Shown: in pieces, positions 45,951 through 64,000 of the stretch
How the letters are laid out: each line of letters begins with the position of its first letter
How positions within the stretch are numbered: position 1 is the first letter of the stretch
Origin: a bacterium BMS3Abin15
Lineage (GTDB): Bacteria > Patescibacteriota > Minisyncoccia > Moranbacterales > 2-12-FULL-40-10
Assembly (NCBI GenBank): GCA_002923195.1
Contig: BDTH01000074.1
Location: 9,081 to 73,080, forward strand
DNA: 64,000 nucleotides
Direction: 5' to 3'
Made by a program: the position numbers and the translations under genes
Notes under the pieces: generated by a model
Database searches by the model: none
What the model was told of the DNA's origin: nothing
Seen by the model: the letters and a program-made list of their open reading frames with translations, nothing else

Positions 45951-46547
45951 CTACTTAATAATCTTATCTACTATACTATAATTTTTGGCCTCCTCAGCAC
46001 TCATAAAATAATCTCTTTCTGTATCCTTTTCTACTTTACCTAATTTTTGGCCCGAATGCTTGGCCATTATTTTATTTAATCTTTCTTTAACTTTAATGAT
46101 ATGTTTTGCATGAATATCAATATCTGTTGCCTGACCCTGAGCGCTGCCCATAACTTGATGGATCATTACTTCTCCATTAGGAAGGATGAGTCTTTTCCCC
46201 TTTTTCCCCGCTGCCAAAAGCAGCGCTGCGCCGGAAGCCGCTAATCCTACACAAATAGTCTGAACATCCGGCTTAACATATTGCATAGTATCGTAAATTG
46301 CTAACGCTGACGTCACCACTCCACCGGGAGAATTGATATAAATTTTGATATCTTCTTTGAGATTCTGTGATTCCAGAAAGAGAAGCTGGGCAATAACCGA
46401 ATTGGCAATGTTATCGTCAATAGGACCGCCAATAAAAATTATGCGATCTTTTAAAAGACGGGAATAAATGTCGTATGCCCTTTCACCATAACTAGTTTTC
46501 TCAATTACGGTGGGAATTAAAAATTGGCTGGTAGTTTTACTATTCAT
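45951..46547 (-). CDS. clpP: ATP-dependent Clp protease proteolytic subunit
   Basis: [24 protein letters not shown], catalytic Ser/His/Asp spacing. Confidence 0.9.
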
Positions 46548-46565: not shown

Positions 46566-47855
46566 TTATAACCTCTCAAGATATCTAAATACTTCCTCAT
46601 TAGTAAGTATTCCTTTCACGTAATTATACAATCTGGCTGTATCAACATTCTTTTCTAAATCTTTTACATTCTTATACTGCTGAAGGGTCTTGTTCATCTC
46701 TTCTTCAATCTTATCACTAGAAGCTTTAATGTCCAATTCTTTGGCAATTTTTTCAAGTGCCATAGATGATTTTATTCTTTTTTCTGCTTGAGGAATCCAT
46801 TCCTTCTCAAGATCTTCCCGAGTTTTTTTCATTTTTTCTAAATAACCATCAATATCCATCCCCATGCCCTGAAGCTGCATTCCAAACTCTTCAACCATTT
46901 TATGCAATTCTGAGTGTATCAAGACTTCTGGAACATCAACTTTCATTGCCTCAATTAGTTTTTCTATAAATTCAGTCCGTTTTTGTTCTTTTTGCTTCTC
47001 TTCCTTTCCCTTGAGTAATCCGTCTTTAACACTATCCTTTAACTCCTCCAGATCTTTGAATTTACCTAGCGACTTGGCAAAGTCGTCATTAATTTCGGGA
47101 GTCTGCCTTTCCTGGACTAAATTTACTTTTACCTTGAATTCAGCAGGCTTACCAGCTAAATTCTTATCGTGGTACTTGTCGGGAAATTGAATCTCGAATT
47201 CTTTTTCTTCTTTTTCTTTCATTCCAATAATATTTTCCTCAAACCCGGGAATAAAAGCATTGGAACCCAAAACTAGTGGATGGTTTTTGCTAGATCCGTT
47301 CTCAATAGGAACGTTGTTTCGACTGACCTGGAAATCAATTTCTGCGCTGTCTCCCTTTTTGGCTTCACGATTAACGGTAACTAACTTAACACGACTGTTA
47401 GCTAATTTTTTTAACTCATTATCCATTTCCTCATTAGAAATTTCCGTTTTCTTGCTCTTATAATCTTTATTAATTTTTTCAATGTCTTTTTTCCATGGCG
47501 TCATTGTTATCTCCGGCATTACGGCAGTATTGGCTTTATATTCTAAATCGTTTCCTTCAGCCAATTTTAATATTTCTATCCTGGGAGATCCCATAGCATC
47601 TATTTTTTCTTTAGAAATGGCATCCTTATATGTCTTATTGATTGTCTCTTTGGCAGCCGCATCTAAGATAGTGTTCTTGCCGACTTTTTTCTCTATCATA
47701 CCTCTAGGAGCTTTTCCAGGACGAAATCCTTTTATTTTAATGTCCTTGGAAATTTTCGAAACTGCTTTACCAATAAAATCCTTCCATTCTTTCCAGGGAA
47801 CGGTAATTTTAATTTCCAATTCTGATTTTGGAAGTTTTTTAGTTTCAATATTCAT
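46566..47855 (-). CDS. tig: Trigger factor
   Basis: N-terminal ribosome-binding region, PPIase-like middle, C-terminal arm; 429 aa. Confidence 0.85.
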   Translation of the reverse strand: MNIETKKLPKSELEIKITVPWKEWKDFIGKAVSKISKDIKIKGFRPGKAPRGMIEKKVGKNTILDAAAKETINKTYKDAISKEKIDAMGSPRIEILKLAEGNDLEYKANTAVMPEITMTPWKKDIEKINKDYKSKKTEISNEEMDNELKKLANSRVKLVTVNREAKKGDSAEIDFQVSRNNVPIENGSSKNHPLVLGSNAFIPGFEENIIGMKEKEEKEFEIQFPDKYHDKNLAGKPAEFKVKVNLVQERQTPEINDDFAKSLGKFKDLEELKDSVKDGLLKGKEEKQKEQKRTEFIEKLIEAMKVDVPEVLIHSELHKMVEEFGMQLQGMGMDIDGYLEKMKKTREDLEKEWIPQAEKRIKSSMALEKIAKELDIKASSDKIEEEMNKTLQQYKNVKDLEKNVDTARLYNYVKGILTNEEVFRYLERL

Positions 47856-50371: not shown

Positions 50372-51793
50372 TTATTCATCTTCTTTTTTAGGATCTTTCT
50401 TTTTACCTGCCCCGCTGTCATCTTTGGATGATTTTGCGGGGTCTTTTTTGGCAGTTTCTTTTTTTACTTCTTTCTTACTTTCCTTTTTGACATCTTTTTC
50501 TTTTTCATCTGCCTCGTTGGCATCGCTAGATGATTTTTCGGGGTCCTTGTCCCTTTTGCCTTCTTTGTCTTCGTCTTCTTCTTTACTAGCACCAGAAACA
50601 TTTATTTTCCACCCGGTAAGCTTAGCAGCTAAACGCACATTCTGACCTTGTTTTCCAATAGCTAAAGACAGCTGGTCATCCGGCACCGAAACTTCTGACT
50701 CCCTTTCTTTTTCCCTTAGTTCCACAGAAAGAACCTTAGCCGGACTCAAAGAAGCACTGATAAACTTTTCCACATCTTCACTCCATTCAATTATATCTAT
50801 TTTTTCTCCTCCAATCTCGTCAATAACCGCTTGCACACGAGTTCCTTTTTGGCCGACACAAGACCCAATTGGATCTATGCCATTTTCCGTAGAAGCCACG
50901 GCTATCTTAGTTCGAAATCCTGCTTCCCTGGCAATAGCTTTTATTTCCACAGTCCCGGCAAAAATTTCAGGGACTTCCAGTTCAAAAAGTTTGCGCACCA
51001 TTTCCGGATGAGTACGGCTTAGAGATATGCCTGGCCCCTTGGGATCGGATTCCACCCTCATTATATGAACTTTAACTCGTTGTCCTATTCTATAATTCTC
51101 ACCCCTTATTTGTTCTGAAGGAAAGAGAACGCCCACTGATTTACCCAAATCAACAAAAACATTGCGTCCCTCTACTCGCTGAACAACTCCACTGATTACT
51201 TCTCCTTCTTTTTCTTTATATTCCTCAAACATTGAATCGCGTTCTGCTTCTCGGATGCGCTGAATTATAACTTGTTTGGCAGTCTGAGCAGCTACTCGTC
51301 CGTAATCTTCCTTGGATTCCAGTTTAGTTTCAATCACATCTCCAAGTTTAATGCTTTTCTTAGTTTTTTTGGCATCTTCCAGTGTGATGTCTCGTTCCAG
51401 ATTAAAACGCGGGAGTTTTTCCTCGTCACCTTCACTTTCTTTTGAGGGTTCTTTCTTTTGTCTAACGCGTTCTGCGGTCGGACCTCTGTCTTCGCTTTCA
51501 GCGAGCGCCTGAGCTTCCTCCTCTGGATCAACAAATTCTCGAGTAGATTCATCCACTACTTCTTTAACTAAATAAAACTTAGTATCTCCTGATACTTCAT
51601 TAAATTCGGCCCTGATGTTCTGGCCCTTTTTGCCATAATCTTTCTTATAAGCAGCCGCTAAAGCTATTTCTATTGTTTCAATGACCTTTTCTTTAGAGAT
51701 TCCTTTTTCGTCAGCTATTTGCATGATAGCACTAGCAAACTCACCCATGCGCATGCTGGAATCTTGATCATTTGTTTTTTTCTTTTTTGCCAT
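50372..51793 (-). CDS. nusA: Transcription termination/antitermination factor NusA with K/E/D-rich C-terminal tail
   Basis: N-terminal NusA domain, S1, tandem KH (GSCVGQKGTRVQ; LAIGKQGQNVRLA). Confidence 0.85.
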   Translation of the reverse strand: MAKKKKTNDQDSSMRMGEFASAIMQIADEKGISKEKVIETIEIALAAAYKKDYGKKGQNIRAEFNEVSGDTKFYLVKEVVDESTREFVDPEEEAQALAESEDRGPTAERVRQKKEPSKESEGDEEKLPRFNLERDITLEDAKKTKKSIKLGDVIETKLESKEDYGRVAAQTAKQVIIQRIREAERDSMFEEYKEKEGEVISGVVQRVEGRNVFVDLGKSVGVLFPSEQIRGENYRIGQRVKVHIMRVESDPKGPGISLSRTHPEMVRKLFELEVPEIFAGTVEIKAIAREAGFRTKIAVASTENGIDPIGSCVGQKGTRVQAVIDEIGGEKIDIIEWSEDVEKFISASLSPAKVLSVELREKERESEVSVPDDQLSLAIGKQGQNVRLAAKLTGWKINVSGASKEEDEDKEGKRDKDPEKSSSDANEADEKEKDVKKESKKEVKKETAKKDPAKSSKDDSGAGKKKDPKKEDE

Positions 51794-54060: not shown

Positions 54061-54924
54061 CTAACCAGAAACAAAGAACGTAGCAACCTGACTGACAATT
54101 ACCAACGCGGCCATAGCAATTATAATCCCAATAACAGACCATTTGAAAATATTTTTCCCTTTAGTTATTCTTTCTTCATCTCCGGCCGATGTAAGATACA
54201 TTATTCCGCCTACTACCAACATTATAAGGGCCAGTATCCCTACAATAGAAAGGAGGAACTGAAGGGTACTAAGCGCTATTACGGCTAAAGTAGGCGACGT
54301 GGTTAAGACATCAATGCACTGCTGTTGAGCAATAGGGTCCGTGATAGACTGGCAGGCTTCCATTTTACTTGCATCGTCCCATCCTATAATATCCGAGACT
54401 TCATGCAGGAATGATGGGGCAGCTATTCCAATTGCCAGACCGATTACTGAAGCAGTAATAGCTTTCTTAGCCATTTCCATTCGTTTTTCATTTCCAGCGG
54501 AAGTTATGTAAAAAATTGCTCCGACTATGATAAATATAACAGAAACAACCACGATTATGCCCTGCAGGGCATTTAGTAAGCTAGCTAGTACTCCTTCCAC
54601 AGTGCTGAATTTTAATGGATTAGGAAAATCAATCGGGGCGGTAGCTCCTGTGCCAGGATCAGTGACTAGAACGCAACATTTTACACCAAGATCACAAGTT
54701 ATTGTAGGACTTGACCCCCTATCACTAAACCTTGAGCAATCACCCCCAACACCGCATAGTCCGTTAGCAGCAATACATTCAGTAGTAGTGGCTTTGGTTG
54801 CGGGAGCACCTACGAAAAAAAGCAAAAAAACAGACAATAGAAAGGTGGCTGCTAAAAATTTTTTAGAAAACAAAAGAGATTTTTTCATAAAACTTCTATT
54901 AAAAATACGGAGTGCTTGCATCAA
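54061..54924 (-). CDS. TrbC/VirB2-like 'T4SS pilin' family protein with two tandem pilin modules
   Basis: Signal peptide; Cys-rich variable region; modules with IFYITSAGNEKRMEMAKKAI and IMYLTSAGDEERITKGKNIF loops between hydrophobic helices. Confidence 0.65.
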   Translation of the reverse strand: MMQALRIFNRSFMKKSLLFSKKFLAATFLLSVFLLFFVGAPATKATTTECIAANGLCGVGGDCSRFSDRGSSPTITCDLGVKCCVLVTDPGTGATAPIDFPNPLKFSTVEGVLASLLNALQGIIVVVSVIFIIVGAIFYITSAGNEKRMEMAKKAITASVIGLAIGIAAPSFLHEVSDIIGWDDASKMEACQSITDPIAQQQCIDVLTTSPTLAVIALSTLQFLLSIVGILALIMLVVGGIMYLTSAGDEERITKGKNIFKWSVIGIIIAMAALVIVSQVATFFVSG

Positions 54925-55348
54925 GCGCTTCGGTAATGGCCCATATTATCACCAAGCCGGAAATACCCACAATTACTCCGATTACTGACCATCTCATATT
55001 TCTTTTGGCTGTTTCAATCATTTTTTCATCCCCAGCTGAAGTCAGATACTGAATTCCGGAAATTACAAAGGCGATTATGGCAATAAACCCGAATATCCCC
55101 AAGACCCAGGATAGAAAGTTAGCCATAATATCGATAACAGGTGCTTCAGATAGTCCGGTTTCTGTAGGAAAACATACACCTGCCTCCTTTTCAAAGCTAT
55201 CTGGACATTCACTAGCGCCAGGATTAGTAATCTGTGCATTTGCTAAATTAGAGAAGAATAAAACGCCAGAAAAAATCAGTATGACAGCAATGATAAAAAA
55301 TTTTGATTTATTGCTTGTTTTAGTTTTTGTTTTCATGATAATTAACAA
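54899..55348 (-). CDS. TrbC/VirB2-like T4SS-pilin family protein
   Basis: IQYLTSAGDEKMIETAKRNMRWSVIG between two hydrophobic helices; signal peptide. Confidence 0.65.
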   Translation of the reverse strand: MLIIMKTKTKTSNKSKFFIIAVILIFSGVLFFSNLANAQITNPGASECPDSFEKEAGVCFPTETGLSEAPVIDIMANFLSWVLGIFGFIAIIAFVISGIQYLTSAGDEKMIETAKRNMRWSVIGVIVGISGLVIIWAITEALDASTPYF

Positions 55349-55356
55349 GTTAATAT

Positions 55357-55749
55357 TTAGCAGATTTTAACAAACGGCAGTATATAAAAGCACCCATCTA
55401 GTAGGGCGGTAACCTCCTGGAGTATAATCAGGCCGGCAAGAGCTGTGATTACTCCATATATTGACCATTTCATATTTCTTTTGGCTGTTTCAATTGCAGT
55501 TTCATTGCCAGCTGAAGTCAGATACTGGATACCAGAAATAGAAAAAGCAATTATGGCTATTATGCCTATTATGGAAAGTATCCACATCATAATCTTTTCA
55601 ACTATGTCATAAATTCTCCCTTCGGGAAGACCGTAATTCCCATAGTTGGCCGGATCCCATGCTTCTCCCTGAGCCTGCACAACACACATCCCAACAAAAA
55701 ACAGAAGGATGATAGTAAAAACCAATAATGTTAAGCGTGACTTGTTCAT
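55357..55749 (-). CDS. TrbC/VirB2-like T4SS-pilin family protein
   Basis: IQYLTSAGNETAIETAKRNMKWSIYG. Confidence 0.65.
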   Translation of the reverse strand: MNKSRLTLLVFTIILLFFVGMCVVQAQGEAWDPANYGNYGLPEGRIYDIVEKIMMWILSIIGIIAIIAFSISGIQYLTSAGNETAIETAKRNMKWSIYGVITALAGLIILQEVTALLDGCFYILPFVKIC

Positions 55750-55919
55750 TTTACTTTTAAGAAATTTATTGATGTTTATATTATATCACACCTAATCTTA
55801 TATAAAAACACTGTGTGGATAACTGCGCCCTTACACATAATAGAGAAGTAAAAAAGTAAAAACGACTCAAATAAAGAGCCGCTTTTACCCTGAAAATTTT
55901 ATTAAAGTCAGTATAAAAA

Positions 55920-56294
55920 CTAGAATGTGGTTTCGCCTCCTCCAAGCCATGCATTAACAGCTTGTAATATCACTAAGCCTACTAATGCCACTATTACACC
56001 GATAATTGACATTATCATTGCTTTCTTAGCCTGACTGACTCTATCTTCATTTCCCGCTGCAGTTAGATACAAGATTCCCGCGATTGCAAAACCGATAACT
56101 CCGATAACTCCGACTAAGGCCAACAGCCATTTCATCAAATTACTAATGATATTGAAGACGGTACCTCCAGGAAGATTGGTATTATCTGGAGCAGCATACT
56201 GTGCCAAAACTACTACTGGAGCCAGCAACAGTCCTGAAGAAACAGTATAGGCAATTTTTTTGATTTTGTTTTTCATCATCCCACCTCCTTTCAA
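55920..56294 (-). CDS. TrbC/VirB2-like T4SS-pilin family protein
   Basis: ILYLTAAGNEDRVSQAKKAMIMSIIG. Confidence 0.65.
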   Translation of the reverse strand: MKGGGMMKNKIKKIAYTVSSGLLLAPVVVLAQYAAPDNTNLPGGTVFNIISNLMKWLLALVGVIGVIGFAIAGILYLTAAGNEDRVSQAKKAMIMSIIGVIVALVGLVILQAVNAWLGGGETTF

Positions 56295-59067: not shown

Positions 59068-59580
59068 TTATTTGGACAATAATATTATTTCCCTTTTATT
59101 TTCGCTTGCCTCTGTCCGTCTAGACTCGGCGGGGATGGCGTGAGACGGGTTAACTAGCTTAAGCTTAATCCAAAGAGATTTCTGGGGAATTATTTTTTTA
59201 ATTTTATTTGCCCATTCAATAATTATTATATTATTCTTGTCGGCTACAATTTCTTCCCACCCGATATCCAAAACATTCTTGGCAGTAACACGATAAGCAT
59301 CAATATGATAAATATCCTGAACACCACCCCGAATCTTGGTTAAAAGTTTTCTTCCTTTTAATTTTCTTTTGTAGTGCTTCATTACCACAAACGTCGGACT
59401 GGTATAGGGATCCTTTATGCCTAATCCTTTGAGCAGTCCCTGGGTAAAAGTAGTCTTGCCTGATCCCAGTTCGCCTTCAAGACAAATAATTTTCCCGCCT
59501 TTAATTTCTTCGGCTAACAATTCGCCAAGTTCTTTAGTTTGTTCAGCGTCAGTTGTAATAAATATCTTCATATATTTCAA
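59068..59580 (-). CDS. tsaE: tRNA threonylcarbamoyladenosine biosynthesis ATPase TsaE
   Basis: P-loop LEGELGSGKTTFTQGL and HIDAYR motif. Confidence 0.8.
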   Translation of the reverse strand: MKYMKIFITTDAEQTKELGELLAEEIKGGKIICLEGELGSGKTTFTQGLLKGLGIKDPYTSPTFVVMKHYKRKLKGRKLLTKIRGGVQDIYHIDAYRVTAKNVLDIGWEEIVADKNNIIIIEWANKIKKIIPQKSLWIKLKLVNPSHAIPAESRRTEASENKREIILLSK

Positions 59581-60407: not shown

Positions 60408-61547
60408 ATGGCACTTGAACCAATTCAACAATTTGAAAAAATTATAGGAAAATCAAAAAATGTTTTGATCCTTCTTCCTCAAAACCCGGACGGCGATGCA
60501 ATAGGAGCCGCTTGGGCTTTTTATTTTTTCTTAAAGAAAAGAGGTGTCGATACTACCATTGCTTTTTCTGATGGAATTCATAATACTAAGAAATTTGATT
60601 TCCTGCCCCGTCCCAAAAATATTACTGACAATATTTCAGGAGCCAGAGACTTCATTCTGTCTTTTGGTACCCGTCATAATAAAATATTAGGAGCGCGCAC
60701 AGAAAGTGATGAAGAAGAGTTTAGAATATATGTAACTCCTGAACACGGATCAATTGACCCCCGCGATTTTTCATTTGTGCCAGCCAGTTTCAAGTTTGAT
60801 TTGGTTGTAACCTTTAACTGCCCTGATAAGGAATCAACAGGAAAGATTTACGAAGAGAATCCTGACATTTTTTATGAAATACCTGTGGTAAATATTGATC
60901 ATCACAGTAATAATGAAAATTTTGGCCAGATCAACTTAGTTAACATGAATTCCTCTTCCGCTTCTGAAATACTAGCGGAAATTTTCGAGCAATCCAGTCT
61001 ATTTTCTTTTGACAAAGTTACTGCCAACTGCCTGCTCTCCGGCATAATCAGCGCCACTGAAAGCTTTCAGAAAAAAAACACTACTCCTAAAGCGCTCCAG
61101 ATAGCCGCCAAACTGATGGATAAAGGAGCTGACCAGCAGAAAATTATCCGCTACCTTTATAAAACCCAGCCATTCCATGTTCTTAAGCTTTGGGGAAGGG
61201 TTATGGCTCGGCTTAAATGGAATGATGAGTTAAAATTAGCCTGGTCACCAGTATATATAGAAGACTTTGTCCAGAGCCGAAGCAGCCACCATGACATACC
61301 TCGCATATTAGAAAAAATACAGGACAACTATTCAACTGGTAAAATGTTTTTGATATTTTTTAATGACACCCCCGATTCCGTAAGGGGTATAATAAAGTTT
61401 ACTGAAGATGAACACATTAAAAAGATAACTTCTATATTAAAAGGAGAAACCAGAGGAAACATTCATGAATTTAAACTAGAAGATGGGGATATAAATAAGG
61501 CAGAAAAAGAGGTACTGGAAAAAATAAGATTGGGCATAAAAAAGTAG
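60408..61547 (+). CDS. nrnA: DHH-family phosphoesterase (NrnA-like nanoRNase/pAp phosphatase)
   Basis: PDGDAIGA, NIDHHSNN (DHH), DHHA1-like C-terminus. Confidence 0.8.
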   Translation: MALEPIQQFEKIIGKSKNVLILLPQNPDGDAIGAAWAFYFFLKKRGVDTTIAFSDGIHNTKKFDFLPRPKNITDNISGARDFILSFGTRHNKILGARTESDEEEFRIYVTPEHGSIDPRDFSFVPASFKFDLVVTFNCPDKESTGKIYEENPDIFYEIPVVNIDHHSNNENFGQINLVNMNSSSASEILAEIFEQSSLFSFDKVTANCLLSGIISATESFQKKNTTPKALQIAAKLMDKGADQQKIIRYLYKTQPFHVLKLWGRVMARLKWNDELKLAWSPVYIEDFVQSRSSHHDIPRILEKIQDNYSTGKMFLIFFNDTPDSVRGIIKFTEDEHIKKITSILKGETRGNIHEFKLEDGDINKAEKEVLEKIRLGIKK

Positions 61548-61689
61548 AAAGCCAATATATTTTTGTAATTCGTATCAGACCTCGCTTCGCGAGGTTTTTT
61601 GCTAACACACTGAAAATGAGCTAAAATAGTATACGAACACCTTGACGAAAAGGCACATACGAATTCAATGCTAAAAAACCAAAAACAAC

Positions 61690-64000
61690 ATGGTTAAAAT
61701 TTCTAAAAAACATGCTGGCAAAACAAAATATTCTAAGGAAAAGAAGCTCGAGACGAAAAGGGTAATAAAAAAGATGCATCGGGAATCAGAGGAAGAAATA
61801 GCCGCAGCTGTTGCTATAAGAAATAATCTTCCCTATCTAGACCTCGGGCTAATACCTGTAGGTGAAGATGATGTAAAAATCATTAGTGAAAGAGATTCTC
61901 ATGACTACAACATGGCTGTTTTTCACAAAACGGGCAAAAATGTTAAGGTTGCCATCATCAATCCTCAGGATGTCAAATTAAAAGAAAGGATTGAAAAACT
62001 TCGCGAAGAAAAGGGCTGGGATATAAGCTTGTATGTTGTTTCTCAATCATCCATCCAGAAAGTGTGGGACATTTACAAGGGTGCCCCTCTAATGGAAAAT
62101 TTGGACACTATTCGGTTGTCTCTTTCCGGAAAAGATTTAGAAGAATTTGAAAAAAAATTCGGGGACCTTTTGAGTCTTAAGGAAAGAATAAAAGAAATAC
62201 CCATTACTAAGGTACTAAACACTGTAATGGCAGGATCTGTAAAAATGGATGCCAGTGATGTTCACTTTGAACCACAAGAAAAAGATGTGCGTGTAAGATT
62301 TCGGATTGATGGCATACTTCAAGATGTAGGAAATATTCCGTCAGACACTTACCGCTCTATACTATCACGAATAAAAATGATGAGCGGAATGAAAATTAAT
62401 ATTCGTGATATTGCCCAGGATGGACACTTCTCCATTAACATCAATAGGGATCGGAAAGATTCAAAAGATAAATCTTCAGATGATGCCAGGTTTGATGTCA
62501 GAGTCAATGTTATCCCAGGCAATTTTGGAGAAAGCACTGTTATGCGCCTCCTCAACCAGTCAGACGTAATGCTAAATGTGGAAGACCTGGGATTACGCGG
62601 ACTAGCCTATGAAGAGATAAAAAAACAAACTGAAAGGCCCAATGGAATAATTCTTGCTACTGGTCCTACCGGATCAGGAAAAACTACTACTTTATACGCT
62701 TTAATTAACAAACTTAATGTTCCAGGAGTAAAAGTAATCACCATCGAAGATCCCATAGAATATCAAATAAAGGGAATCTCACAAACCCAGGTTAGCAAAA
62801 ATAAGGACTATACTTTTGCTAAAGGATTACGGGCTATTGTTCGCCAGGATCCAGACATAATCCTAGTGGGTGAGGTCAGAGATGATGAAACGGCTGATAT
62901 TGCCATCAATGCCGCCCTTACTGGACACCTGGTACTCTCTACTTTGCATACTAACAACGCATCGGCTTCTATCCCCCGCTTAATAGAAATGGGTGTTAAG
63001 CCGTCTCTGATTCCTCCTGCTGTCAACGCTTTTATCGCTCAAAGATTGGTAAGGCGTCTTTGCCCGCACTGTAAAAAAGAATACAAGCCCGCTAAAGAAA
63101 CAGTAATTTCAATTAAAAAAATACTGGCTATAATTTCTCCTAAATCAAAAATAGAGATTCCTAAAGAAATACCTAGTTTGTACCGCCCGATTGGTTGTTC
63201 TAGGTGCCACAATCTAGGATACAAAGGAAGGGTAGGAATATTTGAAGTTTTGACCATCAATGAAGAAATTGAAAAATTGGTAATGGAAATGGCCGGTGAA
63301 ACAGACATAACTAGGGCAGCTTTAGAAAACGGAATGGTTACTATGGCCCAGGATGGTATTCTCAAGGCGGCTGAGGGCATAACTTCAATGGAAGAGGTTT
63401 GGAGGGTAACCGGACAGACAGAGTTCCTAGAAGAGCTTTATGAAAAATTAATGGCCCAGGCTCTGGGACGCGCTACTCTAGTTGACAAGATTAACTTTGA
63501 AAAAGCCAAAAATAGCTTTAAGGACTTTAAAAAATTCCAAGAAGTCATATCGGCAGCCAAAACAAAAGATCTCAGTAAAATAATTTTTTCCGCGGCTACG
63601 CTAATGGATGTCGGAGATATTCATATTGAACCGGAAGCCAATGATGTAAAAGTGCGCTTTAGAATAGATGGAATACTCCATACTGTAGCGACGTTTCCAC
63701 TTAATGAATACCCTAACGTTTTAGGTGAAATAAAACTGCTAAGTGGAGTAAAGTCCGGAGCCAGAGAAGGGGTTATCGACAGCCGTTTTAGCATCAAATT
63801 TGATGACGATATACAGAATATAAAAGAAAAATCAGTAGATATCCGTGTATCTATTATCCTTGGCGGTCATGGAGAAACTGTCGTACTGAGATTATTAAGC
63901 AAAGCTACCGTAGAGCTTGATATGAGCAAACTGGGCTTCAGGAAACAAAATCTTGATAAAATACTTAAAGAAATAGAAAAGCCAAATGGTATTATTCTCA
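61690..64000 (+). CDS. GspE/PilB-family secretion ATPase with a tandemly duplicated N2+ATPase module in one ORF (partial; continues past window end)
   Basis: T2SE N-terminal domain; Walker A GPTGSGKTT; Asp box; His box LSTLHTN; CPHC...CSRC tetracysteine. From ~63500 a second ...VKVRFRIDGIL...VDIRVSIILGGHGETVVLRLLS...KPNGIIL module begins in the same frame with no intervening stop. Confidence 0.85.
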   Translation, partial: MVKISKKHAGKTKYSKEKKLETKRVIKKMHRESEEEIAAAVAIRNNLPYLDLGLIPVGEDDVKIISERDSHDYNMAVFHKTGKNVKVAIINPQDVKLKERIEKLREEKGWDISLYVVSQSSIQKVWDIYKGAPLMENLDTIRLSLSGKDLEEFEKKFGDLLSLKERIKEIPITKVLNTVMAGSVKMDASDVHFEPQEKDVRVRFRIDGILQDVGNIPSDTYRSILSRIKMMSGMKINIRDIAQDGHFSININRDRKDSKDKSSDDARFDVRVNVIPGNFGESTVMRLLNQSDVMLNVEDLGLRGLAYEEIKKQTERPNGIILATGPTGSGKTTTLYALINKLNVPGVKVITIEDPIEYQIKGISQTQVSKNKDYTFAKGLRAIVRQDPDIILVGEVRDDETADIAINAALTGHLVLSTLHTNNASASIPRLIEMGVKPSLIPPAVNAFIAQRLVRRLCPHCKKEYKPAKETVISIKKILAIISPKSKIEIPKEIPSLYRPIGCSRCHNLGYKGRVGIFEVLTINEEIEKLVMEMAGETDITRAALENGMVTMAQDGILKAAEGITSMEEVWRVTGQTEFLEELYEKLMAQALGRATLVDKINFEKAKNSFKDFKKFQEVISAAKTKDLSKIIFSAATLMDVGDIHIEPEANDVKVRFRIDGILHTVATFPLNEYPNVLGEIKLLSGVKSGAREGVIDSRFSIKFDDDIQNIKEKSVDIRVSIILGGHGETVVLRLLSKATVELDMSKLGFRKQNLDKILKEIEKPNGIIL

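What the first reader, a model, noticed from the sequence alone, without database searches (positions are those of the whole stretch)
61690..64000. GspE/PilB ATPase with tandemly duplicated N2+ATPase module in a single ORF
After a complete secretion-ATPase unit, the same frame continues without a stop into a second copy. The first unit comprises the T2SE_N domain, VRVRFRIDGIL, Walker A GPTGSGKTT, His box, and the CPHC...CSRC zinc motif ending ~63430. The second copy reads IHIEPEANDVKVRFRIDGILHTV...VDIRVSIILGGHGETVVLRLLSK...EKPNGIIL, which precedes the expected second Walker A just past the window. Secretion ATPases function as hexamers of single-ATPase protomers, so a covalently fused tandem ATPase would give a pseudo-dodecameric or trimer-of-dimers arrangement and is uncommon.
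Basis: seen in the sequence. Interest (0 to 1): 0.65.

Follow-up and report, generated by a model that had tools for sequence, protein, structure and literature searches.

The report
Naturally fused double PilB pilus motor
This gene of an ultrasmall Candidatus Moranbacteria bacterium encodes a type IV pilus/secretion motor ATPase whose whole motor unit is duplicated in one chain; the fusion is real, conserved in related species and apparently undescribed, but it is a variant of a well-known enzyme.

Summary
From the ATG at 61690 one frame runs without a stop to the window end (770 codons). It encodes N1, then N2+ATPase (module 1, to aa 576), an 18-residue junction and the start of a second N2.

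A 100%-identical database protein and an 89%-identical full-length orthologue (1021 aa) continue into a second Walker A, Asp box, Walker B, His box and Cys motif.

It is not an assembly artefact:
- The two modules are only 48% identical.
- All 120 listed homologues span the junction; 119 are full-length, about 1005-1047 aa.
- 80 species-level genomes carry the junction, with three apparent frameshifts among them.
- dN/dS is 0.03-0.10 across both modules.

Both modules resemble PilB/GspE, not PilT. Single-module orthologues occupy the same DHH–PilB–RuvB locus, so the fusion arose by internal duplication in place. Two rarer orthologues appear to have duplicated independently.

The most likely form is three chains building one six-module ring with alternating sites. 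That stoichiometry is inferred; a stacked double ring is not excluded. I found no paper or solved structure describing it. Verdict: a real new variant of a known kind, of moderate interest.

The parts
61690..64000 (+). 5' 2.3 kb of the tandem PilB/GspE-family ATPase gene: 770 of about 1021 codons, cut by the window end
   Evidence: Open frame with no stop. The start MVKISKKHA is conserved in orthologues. Pfam T2SSE matches twice. P0001 is 100% identical and P0002 89% identical at 1021 aa.
61825..62070 (+). N1 domain (T2SSE_N/MshEN-type), aa 46-127; present once per chain
   Evidence: Pfam PF05157, E 7e-5, 23.1 bits, exactly at the cut-off. The 24-residue c-di-GMP-binding motif is absent.
62116..63417 (+). 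Module 1: N2 domain plus ATPase CTD, aa 143-576, with Walker A, Asp box, Walker B, His box and the CPHC...CSRC Zn motif
   Evidence: Motif coordinates are. phmmer against solved PilB gives E about 1e-105. The motifs are invariant in 119 homologues.
63418..63471 (+). Junction TEFLEELYEKLMAQALGR, aa 577-594: a short helix plus a low-confidence loop joining CTD 1 to the second copy
   Evidence: AF2 predicts helix 577-591 and pLDDT below 50 at 587-593. The junction motif is shared by the main tandem family. dN/dS is 0.03.
63472..63999 (+). Start of module 2, aa 595-770: a strand, three helices and the N2 domain up to PNGIIL. Its ATPase CTD lies beyond the window.
   Evidence: 37% identity to the module-1 N2 region, E 2e-36. 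The AF2 secondary structure repeats that of aa 143-322. The continuation with Walker A is seen in P0001 and P0002.
60408..61547 (+). Conserved upstream neighbour: DHH-family phosphoesterase, distantly NrnA-like
   Evidence: Pfam DHH, E 1e-12. NCBIfam NrnA scores only 49.9 bits against a cut-off of 350. It lies immediately upstream on the same strand in 55 of 61 orthologous loci.
59068..59580 (-). Conserved upstream neighbour: TsaE
   Evidence: Pfam TsaE, E 6e-34. It lies upstream in 47 of 61 orthologous loci.

Best explanation
The gene encodes a PilB/GspE-family assembly ATPase, the motor class that powers type IV pilus and type II secretion pseudopilus extension. An in-frame internal duplication copied the whole motor unit: the short helical lead-in, the N2 domain and the RecA-like C-terminal ATPase domain with its Zn-binding insert. 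The chain therefore reads N1–N2a–CTDa–N2b–CTDb.

**Shown**
- The fusion is real and old, and it is conserved across Candidatus Moranbacteria and related Paceibacteria.
- Both modules keep every residue known to bind and hydrolyse ATP, and both are under strong purifying selection.
- Both modules are PilB/GspE-like rather than PilT-like.
- Single-module orthologues sit at the same DHH–PilB–RuvB locus.

**Inferred**
- Solved PilB/GspE rings are built from packing units in which the N2 domain of one protomer docks on the CTD of its neighbour.
- Three tandem chains would therefore most simply close one six-module ring. CTDa·N2b would be an intrachain packing unit and N2a·CTDb an interchain one.
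- Such a ring has strictly alternating a and b ATP sites and only three N1 domains.
- In the C2 (closed-closed-open) cycle described for PilB, the two opposite sites that act together would always be one a site and one b site. This fits the need to keep both modules fully catalytic.
- The likely partner is the PilC platform protein. It is encoded elsewhere in these genomes, where pilus genes are scattered.
For: **The reading frame continues into a full second module**
- The frame is open across the junction.
- The 100%-identical P0001 and the 89%-identical P0002 continue into a second Walker A, Walker B, His box and Cys motif.

**The duplication is old and maintained**
- The modules are 48% identical over 429 aa.
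- Catalytic motifs are conserved in both modules of 119 homologues. The N2 arginines equivalent to Geobacter metallireducens PilB (GmPilB) R271 and R286 are invariant, and so are D398, E400, D846 and T849 of pore loop 1. Pore-loop E848 is 90% or more conserved (with residue roles from PMC5424180).
- dN/dS is 0.03-0.10 over N1, module 1, the junction and module 2.
- The ORF is intact in 80 species-level genomes apart from three apparent frameshifts.

**Both modules are PilB/GspE-like**
- Both modules hit solved PilB, GspE and PilF at E 1e-83 to 1e-106, against about 1e-30 for PilT.
- The AF2 model matches PilB and PilF chains at TMt 0.88-0.90.

**The fusion arose in place**
- The single-module orthologues P0135 and P0143 lie at the same DHH–PilB locus; RuvB follows P0135.
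- P0133 and P0126 have different junctions and intramolecular identities of 75% and 55%. This indicates repeated duplication at this locus.

**A partner exists in the lineage**
- PilC is present in Moranbacteria, as an orphan gene next to clpP.
Against: - Ring stoichiometry is not shown. AF2 gives a pTM of only 0.46 for the full chain and 0.59 for CTDa–junction–N2b, so there is no confident intrachain packing unit.
- No pilus gene lies in the 64 kb window or within 10 kb of most orthologues. The link to a pilus therefore rests on family membership alone.
- I could not determine whether these genomes also carry a conventional pilB or pilT elsewhere.
- Each module taken alone scores below the NCBIfam equivalog cut-offs for PilB and GspE.
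Confidence: 0.6

Rival explanations
1. Stacked double ring. Six tandem chains assemble into two coaxial hexameric rings, with the a modules on top and the b modules below. Tandem ATPases such as ClpB/Hsp104, p97/NSF and KaiC are built this way.
For: - The AF2 models give no confident intrachain CTDa·N2b packing: pTM 0.46 and 0.59.
- The junction contains a flexible segment at aa 587-593.
- That tandem-ATPase chains commonly form stacked rings is general knowledge, not tested here.
Against: - In all solved PilB, GspE and PilT rings the N2 domain docks on the neighbouring CTD within a single ring (PMC5424180).
- A lower ring would have no access to PilC. Yet module 2 keeps the pore-loop acidic residues and R903, the equivalent of Geobacter metallireducens PilB (GmPilB) R455.
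- Nothing here tests the stacked model directly.
Confidence: 0.2
2. Functional split. One module acts as the extension motor. The other has diverged towards a retraction-like or regulatory role, giving a bidirectional or self-regulated motor in one chain.
For: - Module 2 evolves faster than module 1. Mean within-group distance is 0.93 against 0.77, and module 2 is also further from outgroups.
- There are systematic differences between the modules.
  - The Zn motif is CxC rather than CxxC in the second module of all 119 listed homologues. Some divergent 50%-cluster representatives keep CxxC.
  - The Arg equivalent to GmPilB R257 is His, Gln or Thr in module 1 of the Moranbacteria subfamily but is invariant in module 2.
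- No pilT was seen near any locus.
Against: - Both modules are PilB/GspE-like, and PilT is a far weaker match.
- Both keep the tetracysteine-type insert that PilT lacks (PMC5424180).
- All catalytic residues are retained in both modules.
- The R257 change also occurs in the single-module P0141 and in both modules of P0126, so it is not tied to the tandem state.
Confidence: 0.12
3. Artefact. Two adjacent pilB genes were joined by a sequencing or assembly error, or a tandem repeat was mis-assembled.
For: - The window ends inside the gene, so this genome's own 3' end is not seen.
- Three of 80 related loci (L031, L051, L066) show the gene split by an apparent frameshift.
Against: - The modules are only 37-48% identical, so no repeat collapse or expansion is possible.
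- All 120 listed homologues come from NCBI, JGI, ENA or Logan assemblies and span the junction. The 119 full-length ones are 1005-1047 aa.
- 80 species-level loci span the junction in frame.
- The junction is under purifying selection, dN/dS 0.03.
Confidence: 0.01

Closest known systems
Type IVa pilus extension ATPase PilB (Geobacter metallireducens and G. sulfurreducens PilB, PDB 5TSG/5TSH/6OLJ/5ZFR; Myxococcus PilB 3JC8)
   Same: - N1–N2–CTD organisation, Walker A, Asp box, atypical Walker B, His box and the tetracysteine insert.
- The N2 arginines R271 and R286, R455 and pore-loop residues D398 and E400.
- Sequence match E about 1e-105; fold match TMt 0.88.
   Different: - PilB has one N2+CTD per chain and six chains per ring. 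This protein has two modules per chain and one N1 per two modules.
- The gene is not in a pil operon.
- Arg257 is replaced by His in module 1.
Type II secretion ATPase GspE/EpsE (PDB 1P9R, 4KSR, 4PHT)
   Same: Module 2 scores as well against GspE as against PilB, E 2e-85. The same N2·CTD construction-unit logic applies.
   Different: No T2SS genes (GspL, GspF, secretin) lie nearby. CPR bacteria lack an outer membrane according to PMC6744442. The chain is tandem rather than single-module.
Thermus thermophilus PilF (PDB 6F8L, 5IT5)
   Same: It is a PilB-family motor enlarged by internal duplication.
   Different: PilF triplicates the N-terminal N1 (GSPII) domains and keeps a single ATPase module. 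Here the ATPase motor itself is duplicated and N1 is single.
Tandem-ATPase ring machines (ClpB/Hsp104, p97/NSF, KaiC; T7SS EccC); resemblance recalled from general knowledge
   Same: Two homologous P-loop ATPase modules in one polypeptide assemble into ring oligomers.
   Different: These belong to different ATPase families and form stacked rings. For a PilB-type N2·CTD architecture a single alternating ring is at least as plausible. Nothing was tested here.
Single-module orthologues at the same locus in related Paceibacteria (P0135, 565 aa; P0143, 560 aa)
   Same: - DHH lies immediately upstream of both. TsaE lies upstream of P0143, and RuvB lies downstream of P0135.
- They are 54-58% identical to module 1 of the closest tandem proteins.
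   Different: They lack the second N2+CTD module.

Membership tests
PilB/GspE-type secretion/pilus assembly ATPase (Pfam T2SSE PF00437; NCBI 'GspE/PulE family') | T2SSE domain match above the curated threshold | tested here: met
   457 bits against a cut-off of 24.9, in two stretches.
PilB/GspE-type secretion/pilus assembly ATPase (Pfam T2SSE PF00437; NCBI 'GspE/PulE family') | Walker A, Asp box, atypical Walker B and His box | tested here: met
   Module 1 carries them inside the window. Module 2 carries them in the 100%-identical P0001 and in 119 homologues. They are invariant except the first Asp-box Glu, which is Gly in 2 of 119 second modules.
PilB/GspE-type secretion/pilus assembly ATPase (Pfam T2SSE PF00437; NCBI 'GspE/PulE family') | Tetracysteine Zn-binding insert in the CTD (present in PilB/GspE, absent in PilT) | tested here: met
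   Module 1 has CPHC...CSRC. Module 2 has CxC...CxxC in all 119 homologues: four Cys with altered spacing. Metal binding itself is not testable here.
PilB/GspE-type secretion/pilus assembly ATPase (Pfam T2SSE PF00437; NCBI 'GspE/PulE family') | N-terminal N1 (T2SSE_N/MshEN-fold) domain | tested here: met
   PF05157 at 23.1 bits, exactly at the cut-off. It is clearer in orthologues.
PilB/GspE-type secretion/pilus assembly ATPase (Pfam T2SSE PF00437; NCBI 'GspE/PulE family') | Equivalog-level score to T4aP PilB (TIGR02538) or GspE (TIGR02533) | tested here: inconclusive
   Full-length P0002 passes at 881 and 894 bits, but only because two modules add up. The window fragment scores 578 and 570 bits, below the cut-offs of 676 and 630.
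PilB/GspE-type secretion/pilus assembly ATPase (Pfam T2SSE PF00437; NCBI 'GspE/PulE family') | Encoded with its machine (PilC/GspF, PilM/GspL, pilins) | tested here: not met
   - No PilC, PilM, PilN, PilD or prepilin motif occurs in the 64 kb window.
- No second ATPase lies within 10 kb in 80 loci.
- PilC occurs 5-7 kb away in 4 loci, as an orphan gene next to clpP.
PilB/GspE-type secretion/pilus assembly ATPase (Pfam T2SSE PF00437; NCBI 'GspE/PulE family') | Homohexamer of single-module protomers | not testable with these tools
   The protomer has two modules, so this feature must differ. The AF2 monomer models are uninformative on oligomer state.
PilT/PilU retraction ATPase | No N1 domain and no Zn insert; best similarity to PilT | tested here: not met
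   Both modules match PilB and GspE at E 1e-83 to 1e-106, against about 1e-30 for PilT. Both carry the Cys motif.
MshE-type c-di-GMP-binding ATPase | Tandem 24-residue RLGxx(L/V/I)(L/V/I)xxG... motifs in N1 (PMC5013675) | tested here: not met
   The relaxed motif is absent from the first 200 aa of the protein and of its orthologues.

The most novel reading that the evidence does not exclude
Repeated, independent in-frame duplication of the motor module at one conserved locus (the main family, P0126 and P0133) reflects selection for a covalently paired motor.

The main family would work as a trimer with strictly alternating, non-equivalent ATP sites. It might be the only PilB/PilT-type ATPase in Moranbacteria. 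In that case a single tandem enzyme, conserved between a DHH nuclease-like gene and ruvB, would drive both extension and retraction of a DNA-uptake pilus.
Probability: 0.15. Interest if true: 0.7.

Novelty: new variant of a known kind. Interest (0 to 1): 0.42.

Why it matters
PilB-type motors are thought to work by a rotating, two-fold symmetric pattern of ATP binding and hydrolysis around a homohexamer. That model is hard to test because all six sites are identical.

A natural protein in which neighbouring sites are covalently linked and differ in sequence lets each alternate site be mutated separately. It also fixes the register of the ring and halves the number of N1 docking domains.

For CPR/Patescibacteria biology, pili are believed to mediate host attachment and DNA uptake. 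This finding shows that a whole order uses a structurally different motor, encoded away from other pilus genes in a conserved DHH–PilB–RuvB neighbourhood.

The proteins are already in databases, labelled simply "GspE/PulE family protein". The value therefore lies in recognising the architecture, not in finding a new family.

Tried and rejected
**Artefact.** Rejected. The modules are only 37-48% identical, and the junction is conserved in more than 100 independent assemblies.

**PilB–PilT fusion.** Rejected on similarity and on the Cys motif.

**c-di-GMP-binding MshE-type N1.** The motif is absent.

**R257→His in module 1 as a hallmark of the tandem state.** Rejected. The change also occurs in the single-module P0141 and in both modules of P0126. 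It is absent from module 1 of many other tandem clusters.

**Module phylogeny.**
- A first neighbour-joining run timed out.
- Later runs gave no monophyly for module 1 or module 2.
- The causes were fragments, independent duplications and the faster rate of module 2. I therefore relied on junction homology and synteny.

**AF2 as a test of quaternary structure.** The full chain and the CTDa–junction–N2b construct gave pTM 0.46 and 0.59, which is inconclusive.

**Other pilus ATPases in the same genomes.**
- The context look-up of P0137 gave contigs of about 2.4-2.5 kb (2468 and 2435 bp), too short to help.
- P0139 sits in a classical pil operon, but in what looks like a non-CPR organism.

**Promoter and terminator scan of the DHH–PilB spacer.** One promoter-like site at 61599-61627, not above chance, and no terminator.

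**Literature.** Eight searches were run. Seven looked for a description of a tandem or fused PilB, a double T2SSE domain, or PilB in Moranbacteria, Parcubacteria or the CPR, and none found one. The eighth located the PilB mechanism paper.
Full report
**1. The observation**

Translating window 61690-64000 on the + strand gives 770 codons without a stop. The ORF is missing from the complete-ORF list only because it runs off the window end.

- Module 1 carries VRVRFRIDGIL (aa 200-210), Walker A GPTGSGKTT (aa 325-333), Asp box IEDPIEY, Walker B DPDIILVGEVRD and His box GHLVLSTLHTN.
- Module 1 also has the CPHC…CSRC motif and ends at EEVWRVTGQ (aa 568-576, nt 63391-63417).
- The second copy shows DIHIEPE, VKVRFRIDGIL and VDIRVSII, and PNGIIL occupies the last codons of the window.
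- Pfam T2SSE matches in two stretches, 457 bits against a cut-off of 24.9. A marginal N-terminal MshEN/T2SSE_N match covers aa 46-127.
- The partial second copy aligns to the module-1 N2 region at 37% identity, E 2e-36.

**2. What lies beyond the window**

A database protein from a Candidatus Moranbacteria MAG (P0001, partial, 883 aa) is 100% identical over all 770 residues. It continues PNGIIL-NTGPTGSGKTTT, …VGDPIEY…, …NPDILMIGEIRD…, …GHLVLSTIHTN.

The closest full-length orthologue is P0002 (89% identical, gapless, 1021 aa). It ends after a second Zn-type motif (LCECK…GCQKCN) and a second C-terminal helical bundle. In P0002, module 1 (aa 145-573) and module 2 are 48% identical over 429 aa, E 6e-143.

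The AF2 secondary structure shows the repeat unit: a β-strand, three helices, the N2 sheet and the CTD. It spans aa 143-576 and recurs at 595-1021. The two copies are joined by one helix (577-591) and a low-confidence loop. A profile–profile alignment of the two lead-in regions gives 98% probability, E 3e-13.

**3. Not an artefact; a conserved family**

- All 120 listed hits of the first protein search span the junction. The 119 full-length ones are 1005-1047 aa and come from NCBI, JGI, ENA and Logan assemblies. Where they carry a name it is Moranbacteria, Parcubacteria or Patescibacteria, and they are annotated only as "GspE/PulE family" or "PilB".
All of the best 80 match the whole 121-aa junction at 51-64% identity.
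  - Only these 80 are verified to span the junction. The remaining candidates might match only one side of it.
- In those 80 loci the reading frame is uninterrupted, about 1006-1060 codons, wherever the contig allows. The exceptions are three apparent frameshifts (L031, L051, L066).
- Between the window and its 89% orthologue, dN/dS is 0.10 for N1, 0.05 for module 1, 0.03 for the junction and 0.03 for the module-2 part. dS is about 0.9.
- In 119 full-length homologues the following are invariant in both modules:
  - Walker A Lys, the Asp-box DP.E core, Walker B GE.RD, and both His-box histidines.
  - The N2 arginines equivalent to Geobacter metallireducens PilB (GmPilB) R271 and R286, and the R455 equivalent.
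  - The first Asp-box Glu is the one exception: it is Gly in 2 of 119 second modules, including P0002.
- Pore-loop residues D398, E400, D846 and T849 are invariant, and E848 is at least 90% conserved.
- Residue roles are taken from McCallum et al. 2017 (PMC5424180). P0002 numbering coincides with Geobacter PilB numbering in the CTD. I checked this on E357, T411, H413 and H420 through the alignment.

**4. What kind of ATPase each module is**

Module 1 matches solved PilB at E about 1e-105. Module 2 alone matches GspE, PilB and PilF at 1e-83 to 1e-85. PilT reaches only about 1e-30 for either module. Both modules keep a four-cysteine insert, which PilT lacks according to PMC5424180.

The AF2 model (pLDDT 76.9) matches PilB and PilF chains at target TM-scores of 0.88-0.90. 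No PDB chain covers more than one module, with query TM at most 0.35. This is therefore a PilB–PilB fusion, not PilB–PilT.

NCBIfam equivalog thresholds for PilB and GspE are passed only by the sum of the two modules. The c-di-GMP-binding motif of MshE-type N1 domains is absent.

**5. Origin**

The gene has a stable neighbourhood.

- The DHH phosphoesterase lies immediately upstream on the same strand in 55 of 61 loci.
- TsaE lies upstream in 47 of 61 loci.
- RuvB lies within 2.5 kb downstream in 49 of 58 loci.
- The window shows the same TsaE (59068-59580, −) and DHH (60408-61547, +) genes.

Single-module PilB orthologues sit in the same slot: P0135 (565 aa) between DHH and RuvB, and P0143 (560 aa) after TsaE and DHH. 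The tandem form therefore arose by internal duplication in place.

An exhaustive HMMER search of 1.84 billion 50%-identity representatives found few tandem clusters. About 14 were full-length (P0121-P0134, 39-52% identical to P0002), before ordinary 550-600 aa PilBs take over. In all, 15,231 hits had E<=1e-30. Where named, the tandem clusters are Parcubacteria or Paceibacterota.

Most tandem clusters share a junction motif, [DT]xxY[IV]ExLYxK…L.R, which argues for one origin. Two singletons at the same locus have unrelated junctions. P0133 has modules 75% identical to each other, and P0126 has modules 55% identical. In both, each module's best match is its own partner. I read these as independent, more recent duplications. 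Gene conversion combined with junction turnover is the alternative.

Module 2 evolves faster than module 1. Together with fragments in the dataset, this defeated simple neighbour-joining monophyly tests.

**6. Partners and function**

- No PilC, PilM, PilN, PilD or prepilin motif occurs in the 64 kb window.
- No second T2SSE ATPase lies within 10 kb in 80 loci.
- A clear PilC (T2SSF, 200-205 bits) is present in four Moranbacteria loci, 5-7 kb upstream. It stands alone after nusA–tig–clpP.
- Pilus genes are therefore scattered in these genomes. The lack of pil neighbours is not evidence against a pilus role.
- CPR genomes in general encode PilB, PilT, PilC, PilM, PilN, PilO and pilins, and lack a PilQ secretin (PMC6744442).
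- I could not establish whether Moranbacteria carry another PilB or PilT elsewhere.

**7. Mechanism**

Steps shown versus inferred are as follows.

- *Shown:* two complete, catalytically intact PilB-type modules in one chain, with a single N1.
- *From established structures:* PilB and GspE rings are chains of packing units in which N2 of one protomer docks on the CTD of the next. ATP sits between the N2 and CTD of one protomer, and the hexamer cycles through C2 closed-closed-open states (PMC5424180; PDB titles).
- *Inferred:* three tandem chains form one six-module ring with alternating a and b sites. CTDa·N2b is then an intrachain packing unit, and the ring carries three N1 domains.
- *Inferred:* in the C2 cycle, each pair of opposite active sites is one a site plus one b site. 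This would explain why neither module has been allowed to decay.
- *Contrast:* the unrelated non-CPR fusion P0138 has lost the Walker A Lys of its first module.
- *Not resolved:* AF2 monomer models do not fix the interdomain geometry, with pTM 0.46 and 0.59. A stacked double ring remains possible.

**8. Comparison and novelty**

The closest known proteins are T4aP PilB and GspE, which have the same fold, motifs and N1–N2–CTD logic. Thermus PilF is the known internally duplicated relative, but it multiplies N1 rather than the motor.

Seven literature searches found no description of a tandem PilB/GspE ATPase. No solved structure has this architecture. The sequences themselves are public and generically annotated.

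I rate this a new variant of a known kind. It is real, lineage-wide and mechanistically useful, but it is not a new type of system.

Noticed in passing
window 54061-56294 (-): Four consecutive small membrane proteins all match Pfam T4SS_pilin (PF18895, TrbC/VirB2-like). The last one (54061-54924, 287 aa) contains two such repeats. No VirB4- or VirD4-type gene was looked for.
   Followed up: partly
L095 10001-13144 and L096 3275-6418 (protein P0138, 1047 aa): An unrelated T2SSF(PilC-like)–T2SSE–T2SSE fusion appears in two independent assemblies. Its sulfatase and ECF-sigma neighbours suggest a non-CPR organism. Its first ATPase module has lost the Walker A Lys (GSGTT) and the Asp-box Glu.
   Followed up: partly
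L086 3226-6213 (P0133) and L087 10001-12985 (P0126): These are tandem PilB genes at the same position. TsaE lies upstream of P0133, and RuvB lies downstream of P0126. Their two modules are 75% and 55% identical to each other, and their junctions are unrelated to the Moranbacteria junction. This suggests independent recent duplications or intragenic gene conversion. Each is known from a single contig.
   Followed up: partly
L051 8467-11440 (CP064994.1, complete Moraniibacteriota genome); also L031 and L066: The tandem ATPase gene is split by an apparent frameshift in 3 of 80 species-level genomes. This could be sequencing error or pseudogenisation.
   Followed up: no
L049 1602-2825, L046 341-1561, L068 1158-2246, L031 2218-3438 (all -): An orphan PilC (T2SSF) gene follows nusA–tig–clpP in four Moranbacteria loci, with no ATPase beside it; Pfam was run on L049 and L046, and L031 was read downstream. 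In the window the same nusA (50372-51793), tig (46566-47855) and clpP (45951-46547) genes, identified by eye from their translations, are not followed by pilC.
   Followed up: partly
window 60408-61547 (+) and orthologous loci: A divergent DHH phosphoesterase is almost always the immediate upstream neighbour, for single-module orthologues too, and RuvB usually lies downstream. Its NrnA match is only 49.9 bits against a cut-off of 350. A link to DNA or nucleotide handling is conceivable but untested.
   Followed up: partly
L011, L017, L018, L021, L023, L030 and other loci: Many MAGs titled "uncultured Bdellovibrionales bacterium" carry this Moranbacteria-type gene. Their taxonomic labels look wrong.
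   Followed up: no
window aa 119-126 (nt 62044-62067) versus aa 565-572 (nt 63382-63405): The end of N1 (SSIQKVW) resembles the end of CTD 1 (TSMEEVW), and profile alignment places them in register. This may be a trace of the recombination site that created the duplication, or it may be chance.
   Followed up: no
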